A DNA stretch of 64,000 nucleotides, taken from the NCBI GenBank assembly GCA_001600815.1, contig BCKZ01000003.1, positions 562,581 through 626,580 on the forward strand, in the 5' to 3' direction. Positions within the stretch are counted from its first letter, which is position 1, and each line of letters begins with the position of its first letter. The notes under the pieces were generated by a model. That model did no database searches. It saw nothing but the letters and a program-made list of their open reading frames with translations, and had not been told where the DNA came from. Below, one piece after another: positions 34,500 through 59,560 of this stretch. This stretch comes from Alloascoidea hylecoeti. Taxonomy: Eukaryota. The translations under genes and the position numbers were made by a program.

Positions 34500-34730
34500 A
34501 CATAAACGATCAAAAATAAACACTAATATTCAATGGAAAATCCGCGAAATAACTACCGATAATTTAAAAGACATAATATATTTCGGAAGAACTCTATGCG
34601 ATTCATACATGGGGATCACAGAGGTTAATAATTATAAAAATATATATCAATTGGCTACTGATGAAGCGTTTCACAATCCTATAAGATCGGAAAGCGGTTT
34701 CTTCAAAACACAGAATTAAGTTTTATATGC
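34500..34730 (+). pseudogene. Orphan zinc-finger family, 3' fragment
   Basis: TIKNK..NIQWKIREITTDNLKD..YFGRTLCDSYMGITEVNNYKNIYQLATDEAFHNPIRS aligns with the C-terminal third of copies A, C and E; the downstream flank resembles the 3' flanks of A and E. Confidence 0.75.
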
Positions 34731-35054
34731 CTAATTTTTAAATAAAATCTCTCTCTTTTATACATGATGTTTCGCCAAAAAACTGATTTTAAATAAAGGT
34801 GTATACATATACAGTCTATAAAATTGACACTACCGTTAATAGACAAACCCTAATATATGAAATCCGCTATTATAGAACAATTTTTCAAATTAATATTACT
34901 CCAGCAATCCCAATTAATTCAGCCGACTCAGTCAACTCAGCTTCTTCTGTTATTTCTGCTCACGTAAACGTATACTCTAATCATAAAATAGACATTCTAT
35001 CTGACTACATATTGATGAAGTAAATGTTTCAATGTATCCAAAATATCTTCCCAA

Positions 35055-35680
35055 ATGTTTACATTACTTCTGGGTGTTCTTAATACAATATCACAAAATT
35101 CTGATTTTTAAATTTGGAACACTGATGGAGCAAGTGCACACACAATCAACGTTAGACTCTTCATTTTACCTGATCAAACTAATGCAGATGTTAGCTGTTT
35201 CTTGATTTGGTCCTCTAAAGAAGTTGTTGAAATGAATTCATGATGAGAAGCTTTTAACAAAACCCATCAACATCAATCTCAAAAAAGAAAGATTTTGTTA
35301 TGTTATATTAGAAGTTAAGCGCTGAGACTATAACCTCCAAAATAATATGTTCGGGTATTTTAATGATTGGAATTTAGCCATTTAACTTCTGGACGCGTGG
35401 TTGATATAAGATGGCCGATGATCTCATGGTGCAAGATTTATAATCTCAAGATTCCATCACAGTTCTCGAAGATTCCCTAAAAACTAATTGAAGTGGAATA
35501 CAAACATATTTAGTTTAGATAAAACACTAATTGCACATAATCCACCAAAAAATAGCAAATAGAGACATACATATATGTGTTGCAAGCTTAGAGCTAGTGG
35601 TCTAATCCGTATCCGCTCACACCGCAACATTCACAAAAACAAACATCAAACATATATCAGATTTATGAGATTAATTATAT
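35055..35680. repeat. Dispersed repeat X, long copy
   Basis: Colinear with 47845-48430 (tacattacttc..cttaataca; gcagatg..tgtttc; gattggaattt.gcc; gcgtggttgatataagat; gtgcaaga; gttctcgaagat.cc.t.aaaact). Confidence 0.75.
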
Positions 35681-36090
35681 TAATGTAATTTTATTTGTAA
35701 TAATTTATGCTTGATAGTGAACTCTTATAATTCGTGGTTGCAAATTGCAATGCAACAACATTATTATATTTTGTTAGATATAAAGGATTGTCTTTAAAGA
35801 TTGTTTTTGTGATTAGTTTATGAAATGAGGCTCGATGTTTAGAACTTACTATATAGTCATTTCTACTTGTTTTTATAGAACAGATATATATATGATAATA
35901 TACAGATAATAACTATTCTTTAAAATATGTCATCAGATACAAAAGAGGTATAAAGTCCCGATTATGGTTTATAGAATATACTTTAATACTTAATTATATT
36001 TTGGGATTATTGCCGCTCGCTCAGTCACTCATAATAAATTTGTTTCGGTGAATCCAGATATGGTATAATTGTATGGAATATTAATTATAA

Positions 36091-36160
36091 TTAACATTTA
36101 CATTCCTTTTGACATCTGCAAGTACTAGTATCACCACAAGAACAAACTTTTATGTTCAAA
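36091..36160 (-). pseudogene. Metallothionein 3' relic
   Basis: Minus strand reads NIKVCSCGDTSTCRCQKECKC*, matching the C-terminus of the MT at 57059; the 3' flank 36010-36090 matches 56985-57060. The 5' part is missing. Confidence 0.8.
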
Positions 36161-36299
36161 AAAAAGAAGAAAAAGGAATAGATGTCAGCCACTTGTTATA
36201 CATTGAAAGGACCTAAAAGATCCTAAATTTAATAAGACAGATTATAAATTTTTAAAATCTGTCTTAGAACACTTAGAACACAAGAGCAAACTGCATATA

Positions 36300-36800
36300 C
36301 GATCAAGTCTAAAGTTGTACCTTTTTCCTGAAACCACTCCATATAAAAATGCATTTTGAAAATCCACAACATTGACTACTAGAATACTGTCAATCGCGAT
36401 TTAGGTAATAGTAGCCCCTTGAAGAAATTGTAACCAACTAAGCGAATTGAAATTCTCACTATCCAAAATAGGCAAAAGGTTTAATATAAATCTTTCAAAT
36501 ATGCGGTTTATATAAATATGGCAGTAACTCTTTGTGTAAACCCTTCCCCGAAGAAGTTGGAATGACAAACATTTTTTGAGAGAGCGGCAAATTAAAGGTT
36601 GTAAAAGGCCTTCCCATTGAAGACGTTTCAAGTGCTTACTTGAAAGTTCAACATTGATATATCGAAGCCCACCCTAATAACTAATAACCCTTTTGAAAAA
36701 ACATGAATATGGTTTCTGAATGAGCAGAATCAAAGGAAGAATATTATAATTATATGATCTAAATATTTGGAGTGGAAGTGTGGGTGTTGTATTTAGACTG
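36300..36800 (+). mobile_element. Tc1-like family 2 relic (left end and 5' transposase)
   Basis: Homologous to 38580, 41630, 48935 and 57560 copies (tccaaaataggcaaaagg.. = SKIGKRLNI HTH; aaccc.tttgaaa; ttctgaatgag..caaagga). Confidence 0.6.
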
Positions 36801-37502
36801 ATAATTGTTCTAGCTATGGTGTGGGTATGCATATGCATAGTAATCTGGAAGAGTTTAGGATTATTTTATAACCAGTTTTTTACATGAGCTATAAAGATAT
36901 TTCATCAAATGTATACCAATATTAGATTTTGTATGGATATATTTCTCGATTCATACAGCATCATACATAGTTAATATCAACTTGGTGATATTACTATCAT
37001 TTTGAATACTCACCGTTTTATATAGATTATAAAATTGTGGCTGTTCATGGGTACATACTATTACTACATACGTATGGTACATGCATAGCATGATACCAGC
37101 CTTAAATTTCTCAAAACTAATATTAAATACACGCAATGAATGTAAGTTTTAATATAGAGTTAGGTTTATGCTTGTCGTATAAGAAGATAAATACATTTAA
37201 AATACACCCAAACTAACACTATTATGTAACTTATTTTTAGACTTTCTAATAAAAGCCAAAATGAGTTTAATTCTGGCCGAGTAATTTTGTTCTTACTTAT
37301 TGACATTTGACCTTACGTATGTGTTTCATTTTCTATCCTTTAAAATAATCGAGATATACATGTATTTAATTAGATTTAAATGTCTTGCTATTGCACTTGG
37401 TTTGCAATTTAAATCACTTTCTCATAAAATTCAGATATATGTTCAATCGCAATAATTCAAAGCATCAAATATCTCAGAAAATCAACACATTTTATTTATA
37501 TC

Positions 37503-38325
37503 ATGAATTCTGATGAAATCAATAAGTTGCCTGATTGGGACCAAGGTACATTAGACGACAACTATAAAACGATTATTGAGCAGTCTGAGCTCCAGTCCTA
37601 GTACTAGTCACAGTAGTGATACTTCACCTAGAGTATCGAGAAGTCACATACATCCTCATTATTTAGACAAAACACTTCAGGAGAATGGTAAAGTCTTTAA
37701 TGGAAATGGAGGTACTCGAGGTTGGTTTGGGTATTGCATGCAATGGTTTGATCTTGGTATTGGATACTATTGCACAAATGAACAAGAATTAAAATATGCA
37801 ATCTGGTTATACTTTACAGCCAAACTCAAAATGTCTGTACATCTAAGAAAAACATTAATAAATAAAAAAGGAGAAAAATGTTATGAATATAGTTGTAAAA
37901 ATTGTGATAAATCTGTGATTACTTATACTCAGAAAAAATCACAAATGAAATCTAGTTCTATCGCTGTAATGACCAAATGGGAAGTTGAAAAGATAGTTGA
38001 AAATCATGATGATCATTGTAACATACATTCAAATGATAAAACACTAGGGAGGATAAAATGTATGTATTTAGAAGACCTAATAAAAACAATCAAAAATAAA
38101 GAGGGTAACACTAATAATCAATCGCAAATCCGCGAGATAACAGTCGATATTTTGCAAGATATATATCTCGGAAGAGCTTTCTGCTATTCATATGTGGCAT
38201 TTACAGAGGTTGATCCTAATGGAAATATAATTCGAGTAGGTACGGATAAATCTACTTATAATGCTATAAAAGCTGGTAGAGGTCAATTTCTTAGAATAAC
38301 ACGGCCAATTTTTAAGATTATATAA
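37503..38325 (+). pseudogene. Orphan zinc-finger family copy B (frameshifted near 5' end)
   Basis: Nearly identical to copy C (43507-44355) but lacks 23 nt (tcacagcagcggctaataccacc), so the ATG at 37503 reaches a TAG after about 32 codons. The listed 37576 ORF starts at TTG. Confidence 0.85.
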
Positions 38326-38579
38326 TTAAAATTTTACTAGAAAATTTAAGTTAACACGAGGTAGATTTATAATGCAATACTAACAATCTCTTTTGATAGA
38401 GTGATTTTATAAAATGTTAAAAACTTTTTACCTGATAACTAATAATGATATGTGAACTGCCGATCGTCTATTAAGGTTGTTAAGCTTTTTCAGAGATCCC
38501 TCCAAAAAATAAACCATCTTCTTAATTATATATATAATGGCTTCTAGAATTCAACATCTTTCTTGTAACTTTAACTCTA

Positions 38580-39590
38580 AAAAGAAATTCCAACCAGCTG
38601 AGCGGATTGAAGTGTTTAATCTGAATAAACATGGTTTCTTAATTGTCGAAATAGGCAGACAGCTAAATATTTCCTCCTTAAAGTGTGAAGTTCAGTGTTA
38701 AGATATACTCCGACAGCTTTTCTCGCAAAAACTTCTCCCCAAACAAAAGAGTCTTAGGCAGTTAATAAAAGGAGTTTAAATCGAATTCTGAGGGTTGTAA
38801 AAATTTTCTTCGAATATGTTTTGGGACCTGGCTTCAAAGTTCAATCTTAAAGTATCAAAGATCATATAAGAACCTCTGTGAAAACATGAATGTGGAATAT
38901 TTTCGGTATCTAACGGTCCTTTTCTGAATTAGAAGCACCAATGGAGAATAATGATATATATAGTACAAATCTAAATTGGATTATTAATGGGACGTTTGTG
39001 GTGATGTTGTAATTACTAACTAATGTTCGGTCGCTAAAGGAAAAGTATATGCTCGACATTAAATTCAAAATATTTATAGAATGCAGGAGCTAAAGTCTTG
39101 GTCTATGAGACTTCTAGTCTGTGGTGAAATTTGGAAAGATATTTGTGCCTTACGATATATGCATATGGTATATAGAGTAGTTGGGGTCTCAATTGCACAA
39201 AGCCAGCGCAGGTTCCTAGGTAAATATAATTTCTAAGAGGGGCCATTTCTGAGGGTATCTTATTCAACAACGATAGCACACCTATTCATTAAGCAAGAAT
39301 CCCTTTGAATTAGTTTTGTGGTAATGAGATAGAGGTGCTGAAGTGGCCACCTTTTTCACTGGTCTGATCCATTTGAGGGCAATTGGGAATATCCTCAAAA
39401 ATGTTCATCACAAGAAAGGAATTATGATTATGAGCCTTCCATGCAGTGTAGAAATTATGAAGGATCTATGTTTTGAATTTTTCAAATTATTGGGAATTAT
39501 AGATCATTCAAGAATATCAGTGATAATCTTACTCCATGATCTTTACGGCGGCATCCGTTTAGAGGGATATGGGACGAACTACATTAGGGT
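38580..39590 (+). mobile_element. Tc1-like family 2 transposase relic, near full length
   Basis: PAERIEVFNLNKHGFLIVEIGRQLNIS (HTH); GPFLN; GILFNNDSTPIH*AR..NEIEVLKWPPFS (decayed QQDNAPIH...WPPxSPDLNPIE); LEGYGTNY at the end. Many stops and indels. Confidence 0.8.
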
Positions 39591-39599
39591 TCCACTCCA

Positions 39600-40140
39600 A
39601 GTAAACAATGGATCTAATTAATCTTAAACTTCGATTGTTCTTTTCCCGTTTTGAATTAAGGTAACTATTGACAAGATGGTGAGTAGTGGTTGGATATATA
39701 AACAGGAAGTAGGTTTTACGCGTCTCACTTTTTGGAGGTGGGTTTTCTTTTGGCTAAGTAGCACAACAAGGCGAAGGAATGTGCGCAGTGGACACACCTT
39801 ATGGACTAATAGTATCTTTAGAATTACTGAATATCATGCTCCATTTTAAATACAATTTAAAGTCTTGTAAAAGTTTCACATATTGATTATAATATTGCCA
39901 TTTCTATATAGGGTATCCAAAATACATGGCAGAACTTTTGACTTTACCTGGCTGAAAAATTGCGAAACAATATTCAAGGAGAGTAAAGACTACAGCTTGC
40001 GTTTTTTGAGCACTCGAGTTCTTAGCCGACCGTGCTTCACAGTTTTCACACCTCATGTCAATTTTCTGTTGCTATCACATGAGATGTGGTTACAGTTGTT
40101 GTACAATTCTTCATTCATTATAACAAGAACAGAATTCGAA
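39600..40140. repeat. Repeat Y, putative right end of Tc1 family 2
   Basis: Direct match to 45050-45540 (cagtg..acaccttat.gactaatag; gtcttgta; ggca.a.cttttgactttacc; cgtgcttca) and partly to 42440-42620. Confidence 0.65.
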
Positions 40141-40824
40141 TTTGGATACCAATTATATTCAAAAAGAGTGATTTCTCTATAATAAAATTCAGGCTAAATT
40201 TATTTCAAGATCTACATAATTATAAATATATATAAATTTATTCAATTTCAAATAGGTTCATAATTAACAACATTGATAGTTTAATTAAGCTTTATTTATC
40301 CCAGTTAAAATAGTTACAAGATTTTAAGAAAAGAACGTAAAATGTGCTAGGAAGAGAACTCATATCATGATCATATATCAAAAAAAACTGATATACATGT
40401 ATTTAAATTTTCTCGTTTATTTTTTATTTTTATTTGATTAATATTTGGAGCTGGAGTGTATATTTGCAATTGGGAATCCTCCATTCACATCACTCGGAGG
40501 TAATACGAGATGCATGCTAAAAAGCTTATAGCTCACTACTCAGCCTCGTCAATTGCCAAATCGTCAAAACAATTTTAATAATATAAGTTATAAGATAATA
40601 AACGTGGATTAAATAATTGATGTATGTGTGCATATATTTATTGTATGCATATGTAATGTAACTCATTTTAACTTTAGGAAGTCAAAAAATGAGTTTAATT
40701 CTAGGCTTTTGTACTATTTTTTGTCCTCACATCATGATCATATCATGACATTGTAATTAGACGTTACATAAAGCTTGATGTTTATTTTCAAAACCTCAAC
40801 TACATATTTTATCGGACCAAAATT

Positions 40825-41100
40825 TATTAGACAAAAAATATGAAGCAATTATCACAGCGACGGCTAATACCACCACGAACGGTACTAGCTTCGCTACTTG
40901 TACTTTAGTATCGAGAAGTCACATATATCCATACTATTTAGACAGCATACTTTAAGGAAATAGTAATATTTTTAATGGAAACAGAGGTACTCGTGGTTGG
41001 TTTAGATACTGCATGCACCACTAGTTTGATCTTTATTATTCCACGAATGGGAATGAACAAAAATCAAAATATCCAATCTGGTTATATACTTTATGGCAAG
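40825..41100 (+). pseudogene. Orphan zinc-finger family, 5' fragment
   Basis: gcaattatcacagcgacggctaataccacc...gtatcgagaagtcacatatatccatactatttagac...tttaatggaaacagaggtactcgtggttggtttagatactgcatgcac...aatgaacaa...caatctggttata; stops and truncation. Upstream 40490-40710 matches the family promoter. Confidence 0.85.
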
Positions 41101-41629
41101 ATCCAAAGTTGTTTTTTTTTTCTAAATAAAAGAATCATTGGGATCACATTATGTCTGTTGTGAATCGAACCACTCGTTTGCCTTAGTCATCCCCGACTTT
41201 CGCTAATTCGTTGTAACTTTAACCTAGATGATATTCTCCTCATTTATTCTAGTTTAGGTTCTATTATTTAGAATATATATGAGTTCAGTGCCGTGGGTGG
41301 AAGGCAACATCTCAGGAGACCGGATTATGTGTAATCCATTGTGGAATCTGGATCATAAACTTCAACATGCTCAACGTTAATGGATTAATATTAACGTTTA
41401 GTCATGCATTGAACATAATGGATCAATTGCAATATTCAGCAGACTCAGCATATATTAAACATCAGCGATAAAGGAGCACTCATACATCACTTTATAGAAA
41501 CTCTCTTAAATTCTTAGCTAAACTATCACAACCCATTTTTATATACAATTCCAATGCTCTGCTATCTTTGAATAGTTTGAATAGTAGTGAGTATATATGT
41601 CGTGATAGATATCCGCTTAGAGAATGAAA

Positions 41630-42410
41630 ACAATTTCTCGGGAGCCACTTCGAATAAAAACCTATCTACTAAAATACACCAAGACTTTTAGGATAATGAT
41701 ATGCGAAATTTCAGGTAATAGTCATTAAAAAACAATGCTAATCAATGAATTGGGTTGAAATATGTAATACCAGTAAACTTGGTTTCTCAATAAATTAAGC
41801 AAAAGGCTTTACATTGCACCTTCAACTGTGTGATTCATAATGCAGAAGTATCACAACAACTATTCTGTTGTAATGGATGGTCCTCGAAAGAAAACACCGT
41901 AAATAAATTTCTCATAGGGTGGTAATTTGGCTATTCAAATTCCGAGAATTGTAGAATTCAAAGCTTCCCTCGCAAAGACTTACATACAGTACATTTGAAT
42001 AGCTGAGTCAAAAATTCAACACGGTTATCTCAAAAGTCCATTCTAATAATTCTTTTGAAAAACCATGGATATGAAACATTTTCGGGCAAGTAAAGGGCTT
42101 TTTCTGAATGAGGAAAACCAAAGAAAGAAAAAAATATAATCTAATAATAGATTGGAGTGGCAGCCGGACGTTTATGATGGGGCTGTACTCCATTATGAAC
42201 GTTCGGGTGCTACAAGATCTGGGTTCGGAAATGTATGGCTACATAATACATGTATGCTCGACAACAATCAGGCCAAGTCAAGCTTTTGAACTTCAAAACA
42301 TCTATAATTACATAAGGAAGTTTGGGTCTACAATGCATTGGCTCTGGAAGCTTCATGGTATTGGTTGGAAGTTGGAGGTGTGGTCGTACGAACTCGGTGA
42401 TGTCTTTTGC
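41630..42410 (+). mobile_element. Tc1-like family 2 relic
   Basis: SKRLYIAPSTV (HTH), HGYETF..GLFLNEENQRK, YARQQSGQ..AFELQNIYNY; colinear with the 38.6-39.6 kb copy. Confidence 0.7.
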
Positions 42411-43506: not shown

Positions 43507-44355
43507 ATGAATTCTGATGAAATCAATAAGTTGCTTGATTGGGACCAAGGTACATTAAACGACAACTATAAAGCAATTATCACAGCAGCGGCTAATACCA
43601 CCTTGAGCAGTCTGAGCTCCAGTCCTAGTACTAGTCACAGTAGTGATACTTCACCTAGAGTATCGAGAAGTCACATACATCCTCATTATTTAGACAGAAC
43701 ACTTCAGGAGAATGGTAAAGTCTTTAATGGAAATGGAGGTACTCGAGGTTGGTTTGGGTATTGCATGCAATGGTTTGATCTTGGTATTGGATACTATTGC
43801 ACAAATGAACAAGAATTAAAATATGCAATCTGGTTATACTTTACAGCCAAACTCAAAATGTCTGTACATCTAAGAAAAACATTAATAAATAAAAAAGGAG
43901 AAAAATGTTATGAATATAGTTGTAAAAATTGTGATAAATCTGTGATTACTTATACTCAGAAAAAATCACAAATGAAATCTAGTTCTATCGCTGTAATGAC
44001 CAAATGGGAAGTTGAAAAGATAGTTGAAAATCATGATGATCATTGTAACATACATTCAAATGATAAAACACTAGGGAGGATAAAATGTATGTATTTAGAA
44101 GACCTAATAAAAACAATCAAAAATAAAGAGGGTAACACTAATAATCAATCGCAAATCCGCGAGATAACAGTCGATATTTTGCAAGATATATATCTCGGAA
44201 GAGCTTTCTGCTATTCATATGTGGCATTTACAGAGGTTGATCCTAATGGAAATATAATTCGAGTAGGTACGGATAAATCTACTTATAATGCTATAAAAGC
44301 TGGTAGAGGTCAATTTCTTAGAATGACACGGCCAATTTTTAAGAATGTAATATAG
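43507..44355 (+). CDS. Orphan zinc-finger family copy C (282 aa, intact)
   Basis: ATG-initiated open frame with all family motifs (CKNC...KWEV...NHDDHC). Confidence 0.78.
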   Translation: MNSDEINKLLDWDQGTLNDNYKAIITAAANTTLSSLSSSPSTSHSSDTSPRVSRSHIHPHYLDRTLQENGKVFNGNGGTRGWFGYCMQWFDLGIGYYCTNEQELKYAIWLYFTAKLKMSVHLRKTLINKKGEKCYEYSCKNCDKSVITYTQKKSQMKSSSIAVMTKWEVEKIVENHDDHCNIHSNDKTLGRIKCMYLEDLIKTIKNKEGNTNNQSQIREITVDILQDIYLGRAFCYSYVAFTEVDPNGNIIRVGTDKSTYNAIKAGRGQFLRMTRPIFKNVI

Positions 44356-46372: not shown

Positions 46373-47214
46373 ATGGATATTAATGAGTTGCTTAATCCGG
46401 ACCAAGATACATTAGACGACAGACTTAATACAAATGTTACACCAGCGGCTAATTCCCCATTAATTATAAAAAATACTACCTCAGCTACAGTATCAAGAAG
46501 ACAAATATATCCGTACTATTTAGACAGAACACTCCAGGAAAATAGCAAAGTCTTTAATGGAAATGGAGGTACTCGTGGTTGGTTTAGATATTGCATGCAC
46601 TAGTTTGATCTTGACATTGGATACTATTGCACAAATGAACAAGAATTAAGATATTCAATCTAGTTATAATTTATAGTAAAACTAAGAATCCATCTGCAAC
46701 ATAGTTATTGGCCTAAAAATAGAGAAGGAGAAAAACACTATACTTATGGTTGTAATAAATGTGATAAAAGTTTAATTACCTTTATTCGCATATAGAATCT
46801 GGTTCTACTGCTGTAACACAAACATAGAAAATTAAAGAGATGGGTAGAAATCATAATGAGGAATGTATAGAGAAAAGTAGTGTAACAACCGAAAGAAGTA
46901 CCGGTAAGCATTTAAGAGACCTAGTACAAACAATCGAAAGTAAAGAGGGTGACGTTAATAATTATAATCAATTGAAAATCTGTGAAATAACCGTCGATAT
47001 TTTGCAAGATATATATCGCGAAAGAGCTGTCTTTGGTTCAGATATCAATGTGCCATACTGGTATACAAAGGTTGATTTTCACCGAAACATATTACGAGTG
47101 GATATGAATAAAGCTACATGGAATGATAAAGAGAAAGAGAAAAAGCCATTTCATAAAGCAATAGTACCAATTATTTATGAGGGCCAGCTGATGTATTATC
47201 ACATAATTCTATAG
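46373..47214 (+). pseudogene. Orphan zinc-finger family copy D (stops and frameshift)
   Basis: First 76 codons encode the same peptide as copy E; then TAG at conserved Trp (46601), further TAG/TAA and a frameshift near 46800. CNKC...NHNEEC and EITVDILQDIY are retained. Confidence 0.88.
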
Positions 47215-47844
47215 ATAAATTTTCTCTATGCTGTTTCAACTTACGTTAACGTGGACTATAATCCTTCTTCTATCGGAAATCATAAAATAGACGTTTCATG
47301 GAAGCGCGTCACATTCGAAGAGCTTTTCCTAGATACCTATGTAAACTTATAATTGTATGTTAATGATGAGTGATGCCATGATTAATGGATCCTTAAATTA
47401 TTTATCAGAAAAATTAGTTTTCGAGAAACAAATTCTATTCAAAGATGTTCAGAAAAAGAGTACTTGCAAAGTTCTACCCTAATAGTTCTTATAAAATAAA
47501 TGCTAGGAAATAATATTTCCTTTATACAAATAAATTAATCTCATATATCTCTGGATAATGATATTATTAATGTCATTATTCATAATGAGGTGAAATTTAT
47601 ATTCGATTTAGAGTAATTGGATTTTTATAATACATTGGAATTGTTAAATTTTAATAATAAAGTTACCATTAATTTCGGCTACCTTTGAACTCTCCTCGTA
47701 TGAATAATTGCAATCAGGAAACACATTAGCAAAGAATTATTGTCCTGAGAATTATCATAAACTTGAGAATTATTCACTTGTACATAAAAAATGAGAAGAT
47801 GTGATGCTTACAGATTTTAAAGCGAGGATCTACCTTCATTAATG

Positions 47845-48430
47845 GTATACATTACTTCGAAGCACTCTTAATACAGCGTCACTAATCTTTTATTTTTGGT
47901 ACTTGATGGAACAGGTACACTCCATGACTTTTCAATTTACTTGTGCACACTAATCAGGGAAGCAGATGCTATATGTTTCATAATTTGGTTCACTAAAGAA
48001 GGGGTTGAAAAAAAGAAGCAAATCTCATCATCAAAAAAGATTTAGCTACAATATAGCACAAGGTAAGAGCCCCCGAAGCTATAACCCCTATTAGTTTTCA
48101 TTTGGGTTTTATAACGATTGGAATTTGGCCTTGTAAGCTCCTGAAGCGTGGTTGATATAAGATATCTGATGATTAATCATTCGGATAATCATCTTAGAGT
48201 GCAAGAATTATTATCCCAAATTTCCACTATAGTGTTCGAAGATCCCTTGAAAACTATTCGAACTGGAACTCACACATCCAGGATAGGGATCGTCAATTCT
48301 CCAGAAATAAGAAATGAAGATGTGTGTTGGAAGATTAGTGACAGTGATCTTAATACGCTAAATCGTCACACCCAAGTAGAGTTTACAAAAGGAATATATT
48401 GAGCAAATACTATCAGAATTAAGATATTAA
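47845..48430. repeat. Dispersed repeat X, long copy
   Basis: Colinear with 35055-35680. The minus strand gives a long frame with few stops starting with hydrophobic LNILILIVFAQYIPFVN. Confidence 0.72.
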
Positions 48431-48708
48431 GTTGATGATAATAATACTATTGGTTTTGAAATTTTTAATGTCCAAGTCCAGAGAGTCTCGGTGGTTTAAT
48501 AATTTTAGTTTTTATATATATATTAAATTGTAAAACAAGTCAAAGAATAGAATTAACAAGATATATTTATAAAAATATAAATAAATTTAAATAAGTCAGA
48601 ACATTATACTTTGTAGCCCACTACTCTGTTTTGAAATTTTACCAGCTCGCTCCTCACTCGAGGATAAATTCGTTATAATAAATACAGATATAGTATAATT
48701 TTAATTAA

Positions 48709-48830
48709 TTAACATTTACATTATATTTATCACATTTTACAACTATTATGACAATAACAACTCTTTGTGTTTGAACTTTTGCATGATCTTGAGGCAGCCT
48801 GAAATCCAGAACATTGGGCACACACAAGAA
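48709..48830 (-). pseudogene. Metallothionein relic
   Basis: Minus strand SSCVC....SCKSSNTKSCYCHNSCK..CKC*. Both flanks match the MT locus (48640-48710 vs 56985-57060; 48860-48930 vs 57400-57455). Confidence 0.7.
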
Positions 48831-48934
48831 GAGATCCTTTTTTTACGTTACGGGACCGTAAAGCACAAATTTCTCCGTTTTAAGTTTTATATTATATGCA
48901 ATAAAAAATTGAGAAGCGCAATGAACGCTGTTTA

Positions 48935-49560
48935 TTCGGAAGCCAGTCCAAATAAAAGCCCACCTTTTAAAACCAACCTCAGAAACACTTCAAGAATAAT
49001 ATTCAGCTAAATTTCAAGTAATTGTTGTTCTAAAGATCAATTGCAACCAGTTAAACGGGTGGAAATCTTTAAATTTAATCTGACTATACATACTTAGCTT
49101 CTCGATTTCCAAAATAGGCAAAAACCTTCAACTGTGCGGTTCACAGTGCAGAAATGTAAATTATGTAATGCATCCTCGAAAGAAGAACCGCAAAGATACT
49201 CGGGAAAGGGTTGTAAATCAAATTCTGGGAGTTGTCGAGGCTTCCCCCTTCAACACGGTTTTTTCGAAGCCCACCCTAAAAACCCTTTTGAAAGACCACA
49301 GACATGGAACATTTCCCGCGAATAAGGTCTTTTATGAATTCATATGAAAATGGAAAAAGGAACAGAAGTATTTTGTCTAGTTCCAGGAGTCAGGACGTCT
49401 GGAATGGTATACATATTGTATTAAGTAATTATAATGGTAGTCGCTACAGGAACTGAATTTGTGTATGATACTCAACGACAGTCGGGCTAAACCTTTCAAC
49501 AAAAATGTTTATAATTATAAGGAAGTCTTTGTATGTGATTACTAGTATAGAATCTATAGA
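48935..49560 (+). mobile_element. Tc1-like family 2 relic
   Basis: ggaagccagtccaaata...caattgcaaccagttaaac..tccaaaataggcaaaa..ccttcaactgtgcg..aacccttttgaaa..ggaacatttc; colinear with the other copies. Confidence 0.62.
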
Positions 49561-50699
49561 TTGGAACTTGAAAAGGAGGAGGTACGTTACTAGGGTAGTT
49601 TCCATGTAGCTAACGGTAAATAATAAACTTAAAATGACACATTACATAATAAAATCTATTAATATATTACGGATCCAGAGCATTATGCACATATTTTGAA
49701 AACCATTTAAGATCTTGTGGAAAATATTCAGTGGCTGGTTGTAATTGATATCTTGCTTTTTTGATTTGGAATGCTCCCAAAAAAGAGGCACTACATTTTA
49801 CTCTATAAAGGTCGACCTATAGTTGAAAATTAATATATAATTCTTAGAATTTTAAGGTTAAAGTTGTTAAATATATAAAAACAACAACAATAAACAATGT
49901 TGCAACTTGCAATATATTAAAGAGCATTAAAACCTTGCAATTGATGATTAATAATTTGATTGTGTTAAGTTTTGACGCTATCAATTACAATATAATTAAT
50001 TAACAATATCCAATCATGATCACTTTTTTTTGATTTAAAAAATTATAATGGACAAATAAGCAAACTGAAAAAAAGAAAAAAAATTTAAACGTTATTAACC
50101 CTCATTATATCGTATTATAAAAAAATTCTCAAATTTATACCTTTTATCACATTTTAAATAATTTCTGGCATATTTTTCTTTTCAAACCTATCACTATATA
50201 TATATATATATATAATTTAATCTCAAGCTTAAGTATATATTCAGACATATTATTATTTATTTTCACAAGTTGTTGCTTTTTAACTGGAGTGATTGAAAAA
50301 TCTTTTAAAGTTTTTAAGATGGTTAACTTATACAAAACAATTGATTATAAAATAGAATAATAAAGATGTAAAATATATTTCAATTAAAATTTATCAATCA
50401 AAAAAGTAGACATATTAAAAAAAAAAAGGAAACATTATTTTATAATCAGCATTAAAACAAAACAAATGAACAAATAACAGAAAAAGAAGTAATAAATAAA
50501 ATTGTGTATCTGAAGAAAGAAAAGAATGGAACATAGCAATAAAATGGAATAAAATAAAAGAATCATATATTTTTTAATCAATGATATAATATAATATTAA
50601 AAGTAAACAGGAAAAAAAAAGAAGATTTTCAAAAATTAAAAAAACATGATTGTTATTTTATCCATTTATAAATTGTAATTTTAATTGTGATTGTGATTG

Positions 50700-51732: not shown

Positions 51733-53274
51733 TTATAGTCTCTTCCCAGGAACCAATGCAAAAATACAAGTCATTATAGCAACAGAAATTGCAATAATAA
51801 CAGAAACAAAACCAGATCTTTTTAATAATAATTTATAAACAAAAGGTTCTTTTATTTTAACCATCATTCTACTTAATGAAAACCAATTTCGATTTTTTTT
51901 ATTAATTTGAAATGAAGAAAAATTTGGTTCACTTGGTGAATCTTTTTCATTTGTTGGTAAAATTGTTGTTGTATTATCCATTGTATTTATATCAGCTTGT
52001 GATGAATAACCAATTTGTTCAGAATATCCAAGCCACATTACAATTGGGTCTAAATTATATAAGGAGCAAATGATATAATATAAGCCAATACCAAAAGGTA
52101 TTATTACAGAAACTCTTGTTGATTTTGGTTTCCAATCTAAAAAGATAAAGATAAAACCAAGCCAAAATCCAACCCATAAACAAACAAGTCCAACAACTAA
52201 ACGTATTAATGAACCTTGTGGTGATAAATTACCTAAAGCTTTATATTGTAAAAAAATTGGAAAAGCATCCTTTTCCATTGCTTGAAATACATATTCTCTT
52301 GCTTCGTCAAAGACTTCAGGATCATCTCTACCTTCAATTTCAACGGCATGTCTTACGGATTGAATAATATGAGGAGGTATAACGATCTCACGTTCAGCAC
52401 CTGGGATGAAATAAGTAACTAGTAAGCGACGAGAAGAATCTCTAATATCTTGACGAGATACAAAAGTAGTTGTGTTTGGGCCTTTTGAAGAACTTGGAAA
52501 AAGTTGTTCTAATAATTCTGGAGTGATTGTTCTTTTATGATTTGGTTTTAAATCTTCAGCAGATTGTTGTGGTTGTTGTTTATTATCATTTACATTTAGA
52601 TTTGTTTCAGTTTGTGGATTGGGTTGTAGTTGTTGTGGATCAGATTGTGCATGTTGAGGGAAAGCATTTTCGGAAGGAGTTGTTGGGGATTGGATAGAAC
52701 TTCGGAAGGAATCTCTTAGCAATTGAGATTTAGCTCTAATGCTTGATAAGCGTTGCTCATCAGGTTCAAAGTTTGAGCTTGTATGGGAGTATCTATCGTA
52801 AACTTTTGAAGGAGATTCGAGTTCCTGGTTGCGCAAGTGGTCGGGCATCTCAGCGTACTGCTCAATGAGCTGCGTGACACGGAACAGCTTCTCGTCGTCG
52901 CCCGGGAGAAGTTCGTCACCTCTCAGGAAGCAGGAGAGCCTGTGGGCGTCGTTGTCGTCGAGCACCCCCCCTTGGATGAGGGCGTCCAGCAAAACCGAGG
53001 AGGAGGTTGACTTGTGGGTGTCATTCTGGGCCTGGGCCTGTGGAGGGTGGGCCTCGTCGGAGAGCATGATGGACTGGCGCAGGCCACGGACGTAGTAACG
53101 GCACAGAGAGAGGTGCTGGACGGCATCCAGCCAGAAGTCCAGGTAGTCAATGGAACGCTGCTCGTCGCGCATAAACAGGTAGAAGGACCACAGATCGACG
53201 GGCGCACATGTTTTTCGGTTGAGGACCTCGTACAACGTGGGCAGACGTTGCAAGGCAGAAGTGGTGGAGGACAT
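51733..53274 (-). CDS. RAX1: Bud-site selection protein Rax1 (RGS domain plus 3 TM helices)
   Basis: RLPTLYEVLNRKTCAPVDLWSFYLFMRDEQRSIDYLDFWLD; YFIPGAEREI; EGRDDPEVFDEAREYVFQAME; C-terminal TMs ending VPGKRL. Confidence 0.92.
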   Translation of the reverse strand: MSSTTSALQRLPTLYEVLNRKTCAPVDLWSFYLFMRDEQRSIDYLDFWLDAVQHLSLCRYYVRGLRQSIMLSDEAHPPQAQAQNDTHKSTSSSVLLDALIQGGVLDDNDAHRLSCFLRGDELLPGDDEKLFRVTQLIEQYAEMPDHLRNQELESPSKVYDRYSHTSSNFEPDEQRLSSIRAKSQLLRDSFRSSIQSPTTPSENAFPQHAQSDPQQLQPNPQTETNLNVNDNKQQPQQSAEDLKPNHKRTITPELLEQLFPSSSKGPNTTTFVSRQDIRDSSRRLLVTYFIPGAEREIVIPPHIIQSVRHAVEIEGRDDPEVFDEAREYVFQAMEKDAFPIFLQYKALGNLSPQGSLIRLVVGLVCLWVGFWLGFIFIFLDWKPKSTRVSVIIPFGIGLYYIICSLYNLDPIVMWLGYSEQIGYSSQADINTMDNTTTILPTNEKDSPSEPNFSSFQINKKNRNWFSLSRMMVKIKEPFVYKLLLKRSGFVSVIIAISVAIMTCIFALVPGKRL

Positions 53275-53464
53275 AAGAAAAGAGCGAACAGAGTGGGTGT
53301 CTTGTCACAAACAAGCTGGGAGCAAACACCACTGAAGGAGGCGGCCCGGGAATGTCACGCCCGCGTAAACCTCAGCACGCACCACCCAGCTCGCGTACAC
53401 CCACACGCCCGCGGCCTTGTCTATTTATATCCTCCACCTCTTGTTGCTGGGAAGAAAAGCAACT

Positions 53465-53776
53465 ATGACCGTCCCTGCCGTGGCCCTGGCTGCCCTCGCA
53501 CGCCCCCTGGCTGCCCTGCCCCTGGCTGCCCTCGCACGCCCCCTCGCACGCTCCGTCCTTCCCCTCGCGTGCTCCCTGCTGCCCTGCAGGCCCTTCGAGA
53601 CCAAGACCGCTTCCGAGGAAAACAACGAACAGGCTTTTGAAAGAAGAAAGAAGAGAAACGAGGAGTACTTCATCCGCCAGGAGGAAGCCCAGAAACTGGC
53701 CGCTCTACGTCTGCACCTGAGAAAGCCAAAAGAATCCACTGCTCAAGAAGAGATCGACTCTAAAACTAAAAACTAG
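53465..53776 (+). CDS. INH1: Mitochondrial F1F0 ATPase inhibitor (IF1/Inh1/Stf1 family), 103 aa
   Basis: Arg/Leu/Ala-rich presequence, then AFERRKKRNEEYFIRQEEAQKLAALRLHL, matching the IF1 F.KRE...E.Y.IRQ.E.E.L..LR pattern. ATG at 53465. Confidence 0.72.
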   Translation: MTVPAVALAALARPLAALPLAALARPLARSVLPLACSLLPCRPFETKTASEENNEQAFERRKKRNEEYFIRQEEAQKLAALRLHLRKPKESTAQEEIDSKTKN

Positions 53777-53938
53777 AACCATCCCATCCATTAGATCAGA
53801 TATGCTTATGCCTTATGTTTATGATTAGTTATGCCTTATGACTTTTTTTTATTATGAAACTGTATGATCATTATTTACTATAATTAAATAATTAAATAAT
53901 TAAATAATTTATAAACCTATAAATTTATAAATCTTAAA

Positions 53939-54275: not shown

Positions 54276-54456
54276 TTTATCTTTTCTCTAAATGTAACGT
54301 AAATTGCAGAAAATGAATTAACTCGTCTTGATTTGCCGGCACTCATTTCGTAAAGGGTGTCCGGTGGTCCCAAATATATACCATTCTGTAATATACGCAC
54401 CATTCCTTCCACATCACTATCATATCATAATCAATCGATTAATATCAAATCAAAAG

Positions 54457-55115: not shown

Positions 55116-56629
55116 TTAAACCAATCAATTGCAAATTTAGATAGATTGAATATATTATTGCTATTTATATAATCATAGAAACGAATCAGTAATTTTGTTT
55201 GGAATTTAAGATTTAAGATTATAAATATTTTTGTTTGACGTTTCAAAATAAATATTATTATGTTTTAGAGATAAATCATAATCATAATTAAGCAAAGCCA
55301 CTTGAAAAGCTAATGTCAACCATGTTACACTAATTTATTTCCTAAAAACTTCTTGATAACGTTTAATATTATCATCATTCAAAAATTATGTCAAAAATGG
55401 AACATTCATGTCATAGTTTTAAAGGATTAGATTCTTACACACGCTTATAGTTAAACCAAATAAATTATGATCAAATCAGTTTCAGATCTTATTTAAATGA
55501 TCTTCAAAACTTAATTTGACTCCAATTTCTTTCAAAGATTTATTAGCATGTACATCATTCCCTCGAGCTCATAAATCTTCAAAACGTTTTACCCAAAAAA
55601 TACTTTTGGCAAATCCCTTATGTTTTACCTCAAAATGTAATCAATCAATCAATCAATCAATGTATAATTATATTAGTTTTCATTATGCTTTGCTAATATT
55701 AAACCATCATCCACCGTAAATAATTACCTTTAAATTAGTTTCAAGATTATGGAAAACACAAGTTTCAATCGCAGAATTAATAAGTTCTATCTTATTTGGT
55801 GCTATTCGTAATGTTTGATACCAATTTACATACACGGGGCTTAGAAAAGTCATATGGCAGGTTCTGGTTTCAAGATTCTGAATACCGATAGATGGCTGTA
55901 CAGTACTTGTTTACATAAAAATTACTCAGAAATCTTGTGCTTACATCAAATTAATTAATCTTTGATGTTAGGATATTGAATTATAAACAATCTGAAGAAA
56001 CTATAATTTGCTAAGAGAGAAAAGTCTCTACAAAATTAATATATTTTTCTTATTCCTTCACGACAAGTTAAATACTTGTACAATATACAAATTAAATATT
56101 TTCTACAAGTAGATGGCATACGTAATTTATATTTATACTCGGATACCACAACATTGTTCTGTTGTAACCACAGATTACAAAGTCAGCAACAAAGATAAAT
56201 GATTATTTTAATCATTATTTTTTCAATATTCTCTCTTTGTGATTTTTTCTATGATCTGAGAATTTTTCCATAATTTAATTTAGCGCTTTGACATTCATAA
56301 AACGCAATTTTTAATTACACCATGATAAGTTATACTGTAGATTTTTTCTTAAAGTGGTTATCATAGTGTAATGTAATAATTAAGAAGATCTATAACATTC
56401 CAAAATATGAAAAAAGTTTCCAAATCGCCGCAACTCAGAAGTTCCATTTTGAATTTAATCACCACCAAAATCGAAAGCTTCTAATCTTGGAGAGCAAGAG
56501 TTCATTTGACGACTTGATATTTTTGTAAAAATGGTTATCTCGCTAATATAGAGTTGTTTCCACAAGCTAATTGATCAAATTAAGCTTACGAAGTGTAAGT
56601 TCAAATACCCAGACAGAGATTTTAGGGTG

Positions 56630-56875
56630 TTATTATTTCAAATTTCCATCAGAGTACTCGAACATCCTTTAAAAACTATTCGAAGTTGAATTCATAGATC
56701 AGGAAGGTATATATAATTCTACAGAAATTACATGTTTTAGTTGTGTGTCACTATCAGAAGATTGGAGATAATGGGTTTAATACGTTAAATCGTAGAAGAA
56801 AGCTCACAAAAATGGCCAAGCAAAGTTTACAAAAAGAAAATTTCAAACAAAAAATTATCAGATTTTTAAAATTAC
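56630..56875. repeat. Dispersed repeat X, partial copy
   Basis: aatttccatcagagtactcgaacatcctttaaaaactattcgaag...aagattggagataatggg.ttaatacgttaaatcgtagaagaa...gtttacaaaa...tatcaga. Confidence 0.7.
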
Positions 56876-57058
56876 ACCACAATTAAAAGAGAAAATCAAA
56901 CAAGATATATTTATAAGAATATAAAAAATACAAATAAATTAGAACATTTCAATGAATTTATAGTTATTTCTTGGAATTTTAGCCACTCAGATCTGCTCAC
57001 GTATGATAAAAATTTGTTTTAATAAGTTTAGATATAGTATAGTTGTATGAAATATTAA

Positions 57059-57247
57059 TTAACATTTACATTCATTTTCACATTTGAAATTATCACCACA
57101 AGAACAATTCTTTATTTTTGAACATTTGCATAACGATCCACAACTTGAACAAGAGCATGTTTTTGAAGTATTTTGAGATTTAGAATATTGGAAGATTTTT
57201 CCACAAACACACACACAAGTAGAAGAACAAGAACAAGAACAGGTCAT
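57059..57247 (-). CDS. Metallothionein (62 aa, 16 Cys)
   Basis: MTCSCSCSSTCVCVCGK...CSCSSCGSLCKCSK..CSCGDNFKCENECKC: CxC clusters, AAAATG start context, TATAAA-like element about 90 bp upstream. Confidence 0.85.
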   Translation of the reverse strand: MTCSCSCSSTCVCVCGKIFQYSKSQNTSKTCSCSSCGSLCKCSKIKNCSCGDNFKCENECKC

Positions 57248-57559
57248 TTTAGTTTTGTTTTGTAGATGATATTTTATTTGAAAGTAAGTAATTTAAAACT
57301 GGTTTTTGATTTTGTTTAATATAGATGAATTTAATTATTTATAAAAAGAAGAAAAGAGGAGATTTTACCAACTATTTATACATATGGTAAAGACTATTGG
57401 AAAGCACAAATTTCTCAGTTTTAAGTTTTATATAAAAAATGAAGGAGAACAATGCACGCTGCTTATCAAAATAAATGTTTTTAAGTAAAAGCACAAACCT
57501 CTCAATTGTATTCATACACATTAAAATATTGAGCGAAATGCATATATAAGTTTTACGGC

Positions 57560-58210
57560 CAAATTAAGTCTAAAATTGTGCTTTTTTGGAAGCCACTCCA
57601 AATAGAATCTCATCTTTTCAAATGCATCACAAAAATACTTATAGAATACTGTTAAGTGAGATTTCTGGAAATTATAGTCCTAAAAACCAATTGCAATCAG
57701 TTAAGTAGATTGAAATATTTAATCTAAGTAAACATCCAAATGGCTTCTCAATTTTGACAAAAGGCTAACACTTAATATTACATCTTCAACCTTGGGCTTC
57801 ACACCAACAGCCGATGTAACATGCCCTCTAAAAGAGTACAAAACAAATTATGAGGTTGTAAATGTTTCCACATTTAATACATTTAATGAACTGACTTCAA
57901 AGTTCAACAATGATATTTTAATGACTATCCGAATAACCCACTTGTCAAAATATAAATCTGGAACATTTTTCGTGAGAAAAATACCTTCTCTGAAGAGGAC
58001 CCAAAGGAAGAAAAAATTATGGTCTGTAAAGAGATCGGAATAGTTTTAGGACGATTAGGGTGGTGATGTATTCAATAATGAATGTTTGGGGCTACAGGAT
58101 CCAGGTCTAGAAAAGTATATTTTAGACGACAATCAGGTCAGGCTTTGAAACCTCAAAAGATTTATAATACAAAGATTTTTGAGTATGTGAGTTTTATGGT
58201 ATAGACTTAG
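57560..58210 (+). mobile_element. Tc1-like family 2 relic
   Basis: KNQLQSVK*IEIFNLSKH..GFSI; SGTFFVRKIPSLKRTQRK; ttagacgacaatcaggtcaggctttgaaacctcaaaa (RRQSGQAFEPQ-like); colinear with the other copies. Confidence 0.65.
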
Positions 58211-58457
58211 TTTTTGGGAGGAGTTCATTAGATCGATCTCAGATATATGTTTAATATTCTAAGCTTTAAGATCATGTAAATCTATTTGAAGAACTATAAT
58301 TGATTATGAAATTTCGATTTTGCAATTGAACTATTACCACCCATCACTTAATTAATTAATAATTTAAATAACCTTCTCATGAAATTCAATTATTATACAT
58401 ATTTGTTAACATATTTCTAACTATCCCAAAACCTAAACTACACATTTTACTGATATC

Positions 58458-59252
58458 ATGGATATTAATGAGTTGCTTAATCCAGACCAAGATACATTAG
58501 ACGACAGACTTAATACAAATGTTACACCAGCGGCTAATTCCCCATTAATTATAAAAAATACTACCTCAGCTACAGTATCAAGAAGACAAATATATCCGTA
58601 CTATTTAGACAGAACACTCCAGGAAAATAGCAAAGTCTTTAATGGAAATGGAGGTACTCGTGGTTGGTTTAGATATTGCATGCACTGGTTTGATCTTGAC
58701 ATTGGATACTATTGCACAAAAGAACAAGAATTAAAATATGCAATCTGGTTATACTTTAAGGTCAAACTCAAAATCCCTTTATATCAAAAATGGTCATATA
58801 AAAATCAATATCATTATGGCTGTAATAATTGTGGTGAAACTATAATTACTTTTATTCTTAAAAACTCACAAATGGAATTTGATTCTACCGCTGTAACACA
58901 AAAATGGGAAGTTAAATATATTGATAGAAATCATAATGTGTATTGTGATATGCATAAAAAGAGTAATGGTACACCTCTAAAAATAAAATGTATCTATTTA
59001 GATGACCTAGTACAAACTATCAAAAATAAAGAGGATAGGGTTAATATTCAATCGGAAATACGCAAAATAACCGTCGATATTTTGCAGGACATATATCACG
59101 GAAGAACTTTCCGCTCTTCAATCATGACATTCACAGTGATTACTTATTATGGAAATATATATGAATTGAATACTGATGAACTTACTTATAATGAAATAAG
59201 AAAGGACAGAGATTACCTTTTTAAAATAACACGCAGAACTTTTAATCAATGA
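58458..59252 (+). CDS. Orphan zinc-finger family copy E (264 aa, intact)
   Basis: ATG-initiated; YGCNNC...QKWEVKYIDRNHNVYC...IRKITVDILQDIY. Confidence 0.78.
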   Translation: MDINELLNPDQDTLDDRLNTNVTPAANSPLIIKNTTSATVSRRQIYPYYLDRTLQENSKVFNGNGGTRGWFRYCMHWFDLDIGYYCTKEQELKYAIWLYFKVKLKIPLYQKWSYKNQYHYGCNNCGETIITFILKNSQMEFDSTAVTQKWEVKYIDRNHNVYCDMHKKSNGTPLKIKCIYLDDLVQTIKNKEDRVNIQSEIRKITVDILQDIYHGRTFRSSIMTFTVITYYGNIYELNTDELTYNEIRKDRDYLFKITRRTFNQ

Positions 59253-59399
59253 ATTACAATACATAATTTTATAAATAAATTTTCTTTCTCTTATATACAT
59301 GTAAGTTATAACAGAAAAATCGCTAATTACAAAAGTAGAGGTATAAGATACAACCGTTAATAAAATATTTTTTGATCGTCCTAATGGTTGTTTATATTA

Positions 59400-59560
59400 T
59401 CTCATATTTCAACCACAGTTTTCAAAGATCCCTTAAAAACTATTAAACGTGGAATTCAGACTTGTAAGTTGTAAGATGGGAAGTCCTGATTACACATGAA
59501 TTTCCGGTGACAGCTAAGTTAAGAAAAATGTGTGTCGGGAGATTGGATCTTATACGTTAA
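59400..59560. repeat. Dispersed repeat X, partial copy
   Basis: ccacagttttcaaagatcccttaaaaactatt...ggaattca...aaaatgtgtgtcgggagattgga..ttatacgttaa. Confidence 0.65.

What the first reader, a model, noticed from the sequence alone, without database searches (positions are those of the whole stretch)
34500..59560. Repeated module: gene relic X, metallothionein, Tc1 relic, zinc-finger gene
Seen: the same order and orientation occurs three times. (1) X 35055-35680, MT relic 36091-36160(-), Tc1 36300-36800, ZF copy B. (2) ZF copy D, X 47845-48430, MT relic 48709-48830(-), Tc1 48935-49560. (3) X 56630-56875, intact MT 57059-57247(-), Tc1 57560-58210, intact ZF copy E, X 59400. Non-coding MT flanks are homologous across modules. 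Established: metallothionein loci amplify in tandem with neighbouring genes (S. cerevisiae CUP1 arrays). Inference: an old metal-resistance amplicon that decayed back to one MT while the ZF passenger kept multiplying. Speculatively, the divergently oriented Aft-like-fold gene and MT form a regulator-target unit.
Basis: partly seen in the sequence, partly recalled or inferred. Interest (0 to 1): 0.72.

Follow-up and report, generated by a model that had tools for sequence, protein, structure and literature searches.

The report
Decayed yeast zinc-finger and metallothionein array
A yeast carries an old, mostly broken run of duplicated DNA in which an unnamed, probably DNA-binding gene was copied along with a small metal-binding gene and two dead transposons; the duplication is real, but nothing tested shows that it is a metal-resistance unit or that the one gene controls the other.

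Summary
The repeated order is real and comes from local duplication. The array is wider than reported (32.5-59.6 kb): 7 zinc-finger (ZF) copies (3 open), 3 metallothioneins (MT; 1 open), 6 Tc1-like relics and 4 'X'. X is not a host gene: it is the 3' part of a pogo/Fot1-type DNA transposon (DDE_1, E 1.8e-13). The array MTs form one clade, and modules 1 and 3 share the MT-promoter/Tc1 junction. The metal-amplicon and regulator-target readings are weak. ZF has at least 17 loci elsewhere, with no MT in the 14 whose flanks were read. Four open MTs elsewhere lack a ZF neighbour yet share the promoter motif, and three copper-fist regulators exist. Recent copying (gene conversion) covers ZF genes only, and contig depth shows no MT amplification. 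ZF is an orphan family whose predicted fold is closest to Aft2 (Z 6.2 and 5.7, tied with unrelated folds). The scan noted this family before on other DNA of this genome. Best reading: a birth-and-death array of a probably Mutator-derived DNA-binding gene, with MT as an early passenger.

The parts
32774..33703 (+). ZF copy A, open frame, 309 aa
34412..34502 (+). 91-bp solo LTR of a young TRIM-like retroelement, 5-bp target duplication; later insertion, not part of the unit
34504..34701 (+). ZF fragment f1 (3' end only) followed by the shared ZF 3' flank
35034..35748 (+). X1: 3' half and right terminal repeat remnant of a pogo/Fot1-type DNA transposon
36047..36156 (-). MT relic 1 (last codons, stop and 3' flank); a weakly matching promoter remnant follows at about 36160-36260
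   Evidence: promoter remnant score 52, best of 500 shuffles 47
36300..36810 (+). Tc1-like relic T1 (5' part); junction with MT promoter shared with T3
37503..38325 (+). ZF copy B, 23-nt deletion near the start breaks the frame; about 900 bp almost identical to copy C
38478..39953 (+). Tc1-like relic T5 in two pieces, includes catalytic-region remnant; closest to a dispersed copy, may be an independent insertion
40815..41093 (+). ZF fragment f2 (5' part, broken)
41612..42389 (+). Tc1-like relic T4
43507..44355 (+). ZF copy C, open frame, 282 aa
45180..45377 (+). Tc1-like relic T6 (3' end)
46373..47214 (+). ZF copy D, several stops and a frameshift; first 200 bp 99-100% and next 100 bp 94% identical to copy E
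47698..48486 (+). X2: pogo/Fot1 relic with right terminal repeat remnant
48676..48938 (-). MT relic 2 (48676-48796) and promoter remnant (48861-48938) with one copy of the MT promoter motif
48931..49789 (+). Tc1-like relic T2, the longest-spanning copy
56462..56874 (+). X3: pogo/Fot1 relic, internally deleted
57059..57247 (-). MT, open frame, 62 aa, 16 Cys; a Cys kept in 4 of 4 paralogues is Phe here
57248..57545 (-). MT promoter, homologous to those of the unlinked MTs; motif GAGRRRTTTGTGCT at 57403 and 57490
57560..58207 (+). Tc1-like relic T3, between the divergent MT and ZF E promoters
58458..59252 (+). ZF copy E, open frame, 264 aa; predicted Aft2-like fold, CxxC...H-x3-C
59395..59563 (+). 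X4: short pogo/Fot1 relic

Best explanation
This is an old tandem gene array evolving by birth and death. A ZF gene came to lie next to one member of a dispersed MT family; a pogo/Fot1 element sat between them and a Tc1-like element sat at about -300 of the MT promoter. That unit (ZF+, pogo+, MT-, Tc1+) was duplicated locally at least twice. Later deletions removed pogo and MT from several units, further duplication of Tc1-ZF units without MT added ZF copies, and recent gene conversion made B/C and the starts of D/E nearly identical. The ZF protein most likely is a zinc-held, WRKY-GCM1-fold DNA-binding protein derived from a Mutator transposase N-terminus, acting in trans like its roughly 17 dispersed paralogues. 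The MT is most likely switched on by a copper-fist factor through a motif that all five open MT promoters share, whatever their neighbours. Shown: parts, duplication, decay, conversion tracts, genome-wide distribution. Inferred: order of events, DNA binding, zinc binding, Mutator origin, copper-fist control.
For: Duplication: array MTs form one clade against 4 dispersed MTs (98/98; 83) and share a 3'-flank segment; T1-T3 junction z 13 while T1 scores at most z 1.8 against 9 dispersed Tc1 copies, T2-T3 z 10.5; X lies just past the MT 3' flank and Tc1 at the promoter in 3 of 3 array MTs and 0 of 4 dispersed MTs, although each relic family gave only 9 and 16 profile matches in 205 kb of other DNA. 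ZF as the growing part: 7 ZF against 3 MT; B/C 96-100% identical over about 900 bp with 73-84% flanks, D/E 99-100% over 200 bp; the B/C tract has double depth (119 against 50-64; 20 against 8-10 in a metagenome run) while the rest is single copy; 24 ZF loci on 9 contigs counted; the C2 and upstream C3 copies share the ZF 5' flank but carry no MT. Fold: pLDDT 87.6; Aft2 (4lmg) ranks first of 48,161 chains for both models (Z 6.2, 109 of 120 residues, rmsd 4.1; Z 5.7); helix before a strand set, short Cys spacer and His/Cys end fit the HxC family as described in passages of PMC1702500. MT control: TTTnnGCT in 5 of 5 open MT promoters; three copper-fist genes.
Against: Array transposon copies are no closer to each other than to dispersed copies (Tc1 62.0 against 61.6%, X 60.9 against 61.1%); monophyly of all five array Tc1 copies is rejected (p-AU 0.033), of T1+T2+T3 borderline (0.051), of X1-X3 neither shown nor rejected (0.44), so some Tc1 copies may be separate insertions. 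Sequence cannot show what selection favoured at the first duplication; MT dosage remains possible. Copy E has dN/dS about 1.0 against B, C and C2, so it may be drifting; only comparisons with the C1 copies show clear constraint (0.19-0.37). The Aft2 match is within 1 Z of tRNA-synthetase sheets, below the tool's trust level of 8; Foldseek, Pfam and a PDB profile search gave nothing significant; no MULE transposase domain was found in the genome.
Confidence: 0.6

Rival explanations
1. Old metal-resistance amplicon: selection for MT dosage drove the first duplications, as at CUP1, and ZF was carried along; later MT copies decayed.
For: Three MT copies descend from one local ancestor. The genome keeps at least five open MT frames, so MT dosage has mattered. 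ZF synonymous distances in the array (0.28-0.41) are lower than the transposon divergence, which fits later conversion and leaves the first step open.
Against: 2 of 3 array MTs are dead and the third has lost a conserved Cys and carries 8 bulky hydrophobic residues against 0-2 in paralogues. No depth excess over MT relic 1, which lies inside single-depth contigs (the open MT was outside the stretch laid). CUP1 repeats are 1.2-2.0 kb and none holds an intact neighbour gene (passages of PMC4232551), whereas this unit held a whole ZF gene. MT paralogues spread by dispersal, not in this array.
Confidence: 0.25
2. Regulator-target cassette: ZF E is a metal-responsive factor that binds the divergent MT promoter, and the linkage is selected.
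For: Divergent orientation; best fold match is the iron regulator Aft2; TGCACGC, one letter from the Aft site as recalled, is in the promoters of the array MT and 2 of 4 dispersed MTs.
Against: No MT near 14 of 14 outside ZF loci whose flanks were read and no ZF near 4 of 4 outside MTs (flanks of 1.5 kb only for two of them). A 650-bp Tc1 relic separates the promoters. No match to the recalled Aft site YRCACCC in 6 of 6 promoter pieces. Separate copper-fist genes and an AFT-domain gene exist. Copy E shows dN/dS near 1.
Confidence: 0.06
3. The order is chance: independent transposon insertions into a gene-poor region made look-alike modules.
For: Both X and Tc1 are dispersed families (26 matches each, lower bounds); array copies are not closer to each other than to dispersed ones; p-AU 0.033 for Tc1 monophyly.
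Against: Shared MT-promoter/Tc1 junction, MT clade, 6 of 6 Tc1 and 4 of 4 X on one strand (one further short pogo end at 56130-56277 is on the other strand). May hold for T5 alone.
Confidence: 0.04
4. The ZF genes are cargo or remains of a still-mobile element that spreads by transposition.
For: 24 loci on 9 contigs, no relative outside this genome among the hits checked, probable Mutator-type fold.
Against: No terminal inverted repeats beyond chance-level pairs around the copies in 6 of 6 regions; no MULE domain found; no longer fused form (weak evidence); constraint between subfamilies (dN/dS 0.19-0.37).
Confidence: 0.05

Closest known systems
Yeast tandem gene arrays with gene relics (Despons et al., PMC2822764; passages)
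   Same: Direct orientation, relic copies (11% of arrays there), birth-and-death with possible gene conversion, large arrays interrupted by unrelated genes.
   Different: Here the unit holds two unrelated genes and two transposon relics; that survey aimed at arrays without spacer genes.
S. cerevisiae CUP1 arrays (PMC4232551; passages)
   Same: A Cys-rich metallothionein gene duplicated in tandem with neighbouring DNA.
   Different: CUP1 units are 1.2-2.0 kb, never hold an intact neighbour and vary in number; here units are 60-75% alike, 2 of 3 MTs are dead, the neighbour is whole and outnumbers MT.
WRKY-GCM1 superfamily: HxC (MuDR-type) and insert-containing (Aft1/Rcs1, Aft2, Rbf1, FAR1) families (PMC1702500; passages; PDB 4lmg)
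   Same: N-terminal helix, antiparallel strands, two Cys then His and Cys as likely zinc ligands, stand-alone form, lineage-specific expansion.
   Different: CxxC and H-x3-C spacing instead of HxC or HxH; extra N-terminal segment and a helical C-terminal part; no sequence-level match to AFT, FAR1 or MuDR profiles.
pogo/Fot1-type (DDE_1, PF03184) and Tc1-type (DDE_3, PF13358) DNA transposons
   Same: X aligns along the 3' half and terminal repeat of a 2.2-kb element with long terminal inverted repeats and a DDE_1 domain; the Tc1 relics belong to a family with DN-PIH and LNPIE motifs.
   Different: All array copies are dead fragments.

Membership tests
Tandem gene array, birth-and-death type | Neighbouring homologous copies in direct orientation, some intact and some relics | tested here: met
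   7 of 7 ZF on +, 3 open; 3 of 3 MT on -, 1 open
Tandem gene array, birth-and-death type | Copies descend from a local ancestor | tested here: met
   MT clade 98/98, shared junction; Tc1 trees do not support it for all copies
CUP1-type metallothionein amplicon | Several functional MT copies in near-identical repeats | tested here: not met
   1 open MT of 3; units 60-75% alike
CUP1-type metallothionein amplicon | Copy number above the assembly or variable between strains | tested here: inconclusive
   Contig depth single copy over 32-46 kb in 3 DNA runs, two of which may be the source; contigs only; the open MT was not in the stretch laid
CUP1-type metallothionein amplicon | Metal induction and resistance that follows dose | not testable with these tools
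   Needs expression data and growth tests
Fungal metallothionein | Short, Cys-rich (CxC motifs) protein | tested here: met
   62 aa, 16 Cys; four paralogues of 46-61 aa with 12-19 Cys
Fungal metallothionein | Match to a curated MT profile | tested here: inconclusive
   No Pfam hit for the array MT; one paralogue Metallothio_5 at E 1.5
Fungal metallothionein | Binds Cu, Zn or Cd | not testable with these tools
   Needs purified protein
WRKY-GCM1 superfamily | Four-stranded fold with N-terminal helix (HxC and insert families) | tested here: inconclusive
   Models show helix then four strands; Aft2 first at Z 6.2 and 5.7 but tied with unrelated folds; GCM at Z 4.2
WRKY-GCM1 superfamily | Two Cys and a C-terminal HxH or HxC zinc site | tested here: inconclusive
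   CxxC invariant in 16 of 16 rows; His and Cys follow the last strand but mostly as H-x3-C
WRKY-GCM1 superfamily | Sequence-specific DNA binding and zinc binding | not testable with these tools
   Needs binding assays
AFT family (PF08731) | Profile match over the curated cut-off | tested here: not met
   0 of 19 alignment members; the genome's one AFT match is another gene; profile comparison with it probability 0.1%
Mutator (MULE) element | Transposase catalytic domain and terminal inverted repeats | tested here: not met
   No PF10551 match in the genome (loose first look); no terminal repeats in 6 of 6 regions
pogo/Fot1 transposon (for X) | DDE_1 domain, psq-type HTH, terminal inverted repeats in the parent element | tested here: met
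   Parent on C18: DDE_1 E 1.8e-13, HTH_psq E 0.02, repeats of 111 nt at 97% plus 97 nt at 89%; X1-X4 align to it
Tc1 transposon (for the relics) | DDE_3 catalytic domain | tested here: inconclusive
   Motifs visible in a dispersed family member; Pfam E 0.074, under the cut-off; terminal repeats not found

The most novel reading that the evidence does not exclude
The orphan ZF family is a second, transposon-born class of metal regulators: its members bind the TGCACGC element of MT promoters in trans, and the array began as a selected regulator-plus-MT cassette, an independent replay of the rise of Aft1/Aft2 from a Mutator transposase, caught with two dozen paralogues in one lineage.
Probability: 0.06. 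Interest if true: 0.7.

Novelty: new variant of a known kind. Interest (0 to 1): 0.3.

Why it matters
As it stands it is a clear but ordinary case of a yeast tandem array in which dead transposons mark the duplication unit. Its value is as part of an orphan family of about 24 probable DNA-binding genes with no detected relative outside this genome, a candidate for studying how regulators arise from Mutator transposases. If the family were shown to control metal genes it would be an independent origin of an Aft-like regulator, which would be of real interest.

Tried and rejected
X as a host gene relic: rejected. The array Tc1 relics as copies of the young Tc1 at 31.2-32.2 kb: no significant tblastx match. 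Outside relatives of ZF: single-protein search gave 1 hit of 118 candidates, the C2 copy; profile search of 1.84 billion representatives gave 18 hits; the most distant, P0019, maps to this genome and finds only itself; P0014-P0017 were not mapped one by one; longer forms 0 of 7445 candidates; ESM Atlas no usable hit. These blanks do not prove absence. Foldseek against PDB and viral models: nothing at E 0.001. PDB sequence profile: nothing under E 0.37. No WRKY or FLYWCH chain was listed among the top 50 rows, which excludes nothing. Expression: no RNA holder listed; the one RNA run laid had next to no match; no evidence either way. Low depth at 46.8-50 kb in two runs was not read as a deletion, since records can be filtered out and a third run covers it. 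Assembly artefact for B/C: rejected by double depth. A stop shared by D and f2 at the same Trp codon was noted but could be convergent. Rfam over 30-64 kb and tRNA scan: nothing. A genome census with the family profile was not possible; the count of 24 loci rests on three single-protein searches and is a lower bound. Literature: one search for metallothionein with WRKY-GCM1, transposon-derived, gene cluster and budding yeast found 0 papers with 4 of 5 terms; this single search does not show that nothing is in print. No supplements were opened.
Full report
Setting. The window is low-GC (31%) budding-yeast-type DNA, judged by its genes; it is C3:562581-626580 of a 24.8-Mb assembly. Between 32.5 and 59.6 kb lies a cluster of same-strand repeats.

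The order X(+), MT(-), Tc1(+) occurs three times. Module alignments score 438, 597 and 654.5 against best-of-10 shuffles of 180.5, 110.5 and 110. A profile made from two unlinked MT loci finds both relics and the promoter remnant of module 2. The array is wider than reported: ZF copies A, f1, B, f2, C, D, E, six Tc1-like elements in seven pieces and four X. A, C and E are open; B has a 23-nt deletion and D several stops. Single-copy genes at 50-56 kb (an RGS-domain gene and an ATPase-inhibitor-like gene among them) separate modules 2 and 3.

X is a transposon. A DNA search gave 26 matches across the genome (25 candidates scored, a lower bound). One relative on C18 is a 2.2-kb element with long terminal inverted repeats, a psq-type HTH (E 0.02) and a DDE_1 domain (E 1.8e-13). 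X1-X4 align to its 3' half and right end. The Tc1 relic is also a dispersed family (26 matches, 23 candidates); Tc1 motifs are visible in a fuller copy, though Pfam gives only E 0.074.

The modules come from duplication, with a caveat. The three array MTs form one side of the tree against four dispersed MTs (98/98; 83 in a simpler run) and share a 3'-flank segment. The stretch where the MT promoter meets Tc1 is shared by modules 1 and 3 (z 13; T1 reaches at most z 1.8 against 9 dispersed copies, T3 at most 6.7) and by 2 and 3 (z 10.5). None of the four dispersed MTs has X or Tc1 in these places. Against this, array transposon copies are no more alike than dispersed ones (about 61-62%), one clade for all five tested Tc1 copies is rejected at p 0.033 and for T1-T3 is borderline at 0.051. 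The duplications are therefore old, and T5 at least may be a separate insertion.

What is growing is ZF, not MT. ZF outnumbers MT 7 to 3. B and C are 96-100% identical over about 900 bp within flanks of 73-84%; D and E are 99-100% identical over their first 200 bp. These look like recent gene conversion (inference). Contig depth is single over most of 32-46 kb and double on the B/C tract, in a possible source run and in a wood-decay metagenome run, so both copies are real and no hidden amplification shows (contigs only, the open MT lay outside the stretch). Three single-protein searches give 24 ZF loci on 9 contigs, 17 outside the array. Flanks were read for 14 of the 17, with no MT in any. 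The nearest known MT on a shared contig is about 220 kb from a ZF. The C2 copy shares the ZF 5' and 3' flanks, so ZF has moved with its own promoter and without MT. dN/dS is 0.19-0.37 between subfamilies, about 0.5 among A, B/C and C2, and about 1.0 for E against B, C and C2 (simple counting method).

The MT is an ordinary family member, perhaps weakening. Four more open MT frames lie on C11, C4, C1 and C21. All five promoters carry TTTnnGCT, mostly as GAGRRRTTTGTGCT, in one to four copies; in 205 kb of other DNA plus five further loci the long form was found only at MT loci. It resembles, without matching, the GCTG-type Ace1/Cuf1 element (WNNNGCTGD in passages of PMC1929147; the Ace1/Amt1 TTTnnGCTG form is recalled). 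Three copper-fist genes exist and one separate AFT-domain gene. The array MT has Phe where 4 of 4 paralogues have Cys, and two more Cys look replaced in the DNA alignment.

What ZF is. No relative outside this genome was identified (four hits were not mapped). Pfam gives nothing over a cut-off for 19 of 19 members. The model of copy E is confident (pLDDT 87.6): a helix, four strands, CxxC at the end of one strand, His and Cys after the last, then helices. Aft2 bound to DNA ranks first for two models (Z 6.2, rmsd 4.1, 109 of 120 residues; Z 5.7), but within 1 Z of tRNA-synthetase sheets. Passages of PMC1702500 describe Mutator-linked WRKY-GCM1 families with an N-terminal helix, one with a short Cys spacer and HxC, and derive Aft1/Aft2 from such transposases. 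ZF fits that plan except for H-x3-C spacing. It works like a WRKY-GCM1 DNA-binding protein with fair odds (about 0.7, my estimate); membership is unproven, and AFT family membership was not met. No MULE catalytic domain and no terminal repeats were found.

Comparison. Arrays with relics make up 11% of yeast tandem arrays (PMC2822764, passages). CUP1 repeats are 1.2-2.0 kb and never hold an intact neighbour (PMC4232551, passages), unlike this unit. PMC3167633 (passages) was used only for the list of copper-fist factors. Other papers were seen as search listings only; no supplements were opened.

Verdict. A real, old, decaying tandem array. Most likely a birth-and-death array of an orphan DNA-binding gene with an MT passenger (0.6); an MT-driven start cannot be excluded (0.25); a regulator-target cassette is unlikely (0.06). 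Interest 0.3.

Noticed in passing
window 34412-34502; L090 (C11:769292-769686) and L089: A 91-bp solo LTR (TG...CA ends, target duplication seen at 8 of 11 loci read; the other three are one solo without it and two paired elements) with 178 candidate places, the 40 scored 91-100% identical. Two loci hold a complete element of about 390 bp with two LTRs, a primer-site-like motif after the first and a G-rich tract before the second: a young TRIM-like retroelement with unusually short LTRs.
   Followed up: partly
L077 (C1:278351) and L073 (C1:283.2 kb): A copper-fist transcription factor gene lies about 4.8 kb from an open MT gene on the same strand; a better candidate for a linked regulator and target than the ZF gene.
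   Followed up: no
window 31150-32300: A younger Tc1-type relic on the minus strand with about six close copies by depth; a different family from the array relics.
   Followed up: partly
L048-L050 (C1:735-755 kb); L056-L057 (C8:824-833 kb): Two more ZF clusters, five and three copies, with no MT; several members appear split in two by an intron or a break just after the CxxC strand.
   Followed up: partly
L066 (C3:1246329-1247717): P0019, a 463-aa very distant ZF family member with a coiled-coil-like N-terminus and an HHxC end, closer to the usual HxC pattern; may be the best query for linking the family to Mutator proteins.
   Followed up: partly
window 5500-6000 and 20280-20470: Further relics of the same pogo/Fot1 family, the second a short element made of the two ends.
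   Followed up: no
window 35840-35930: A short stretch with about six-fold contig depth between X1 and MT relic 1; probably another small repeat.
   Followed up: no
window 52800-53800: A GC-rich island (45% over 52-54 kb in a 31% window) covering the start of the RGS-domain gene and a divergent ATPase-inhibitor-like gene with a short repeat in its leader.
   Followed up: no
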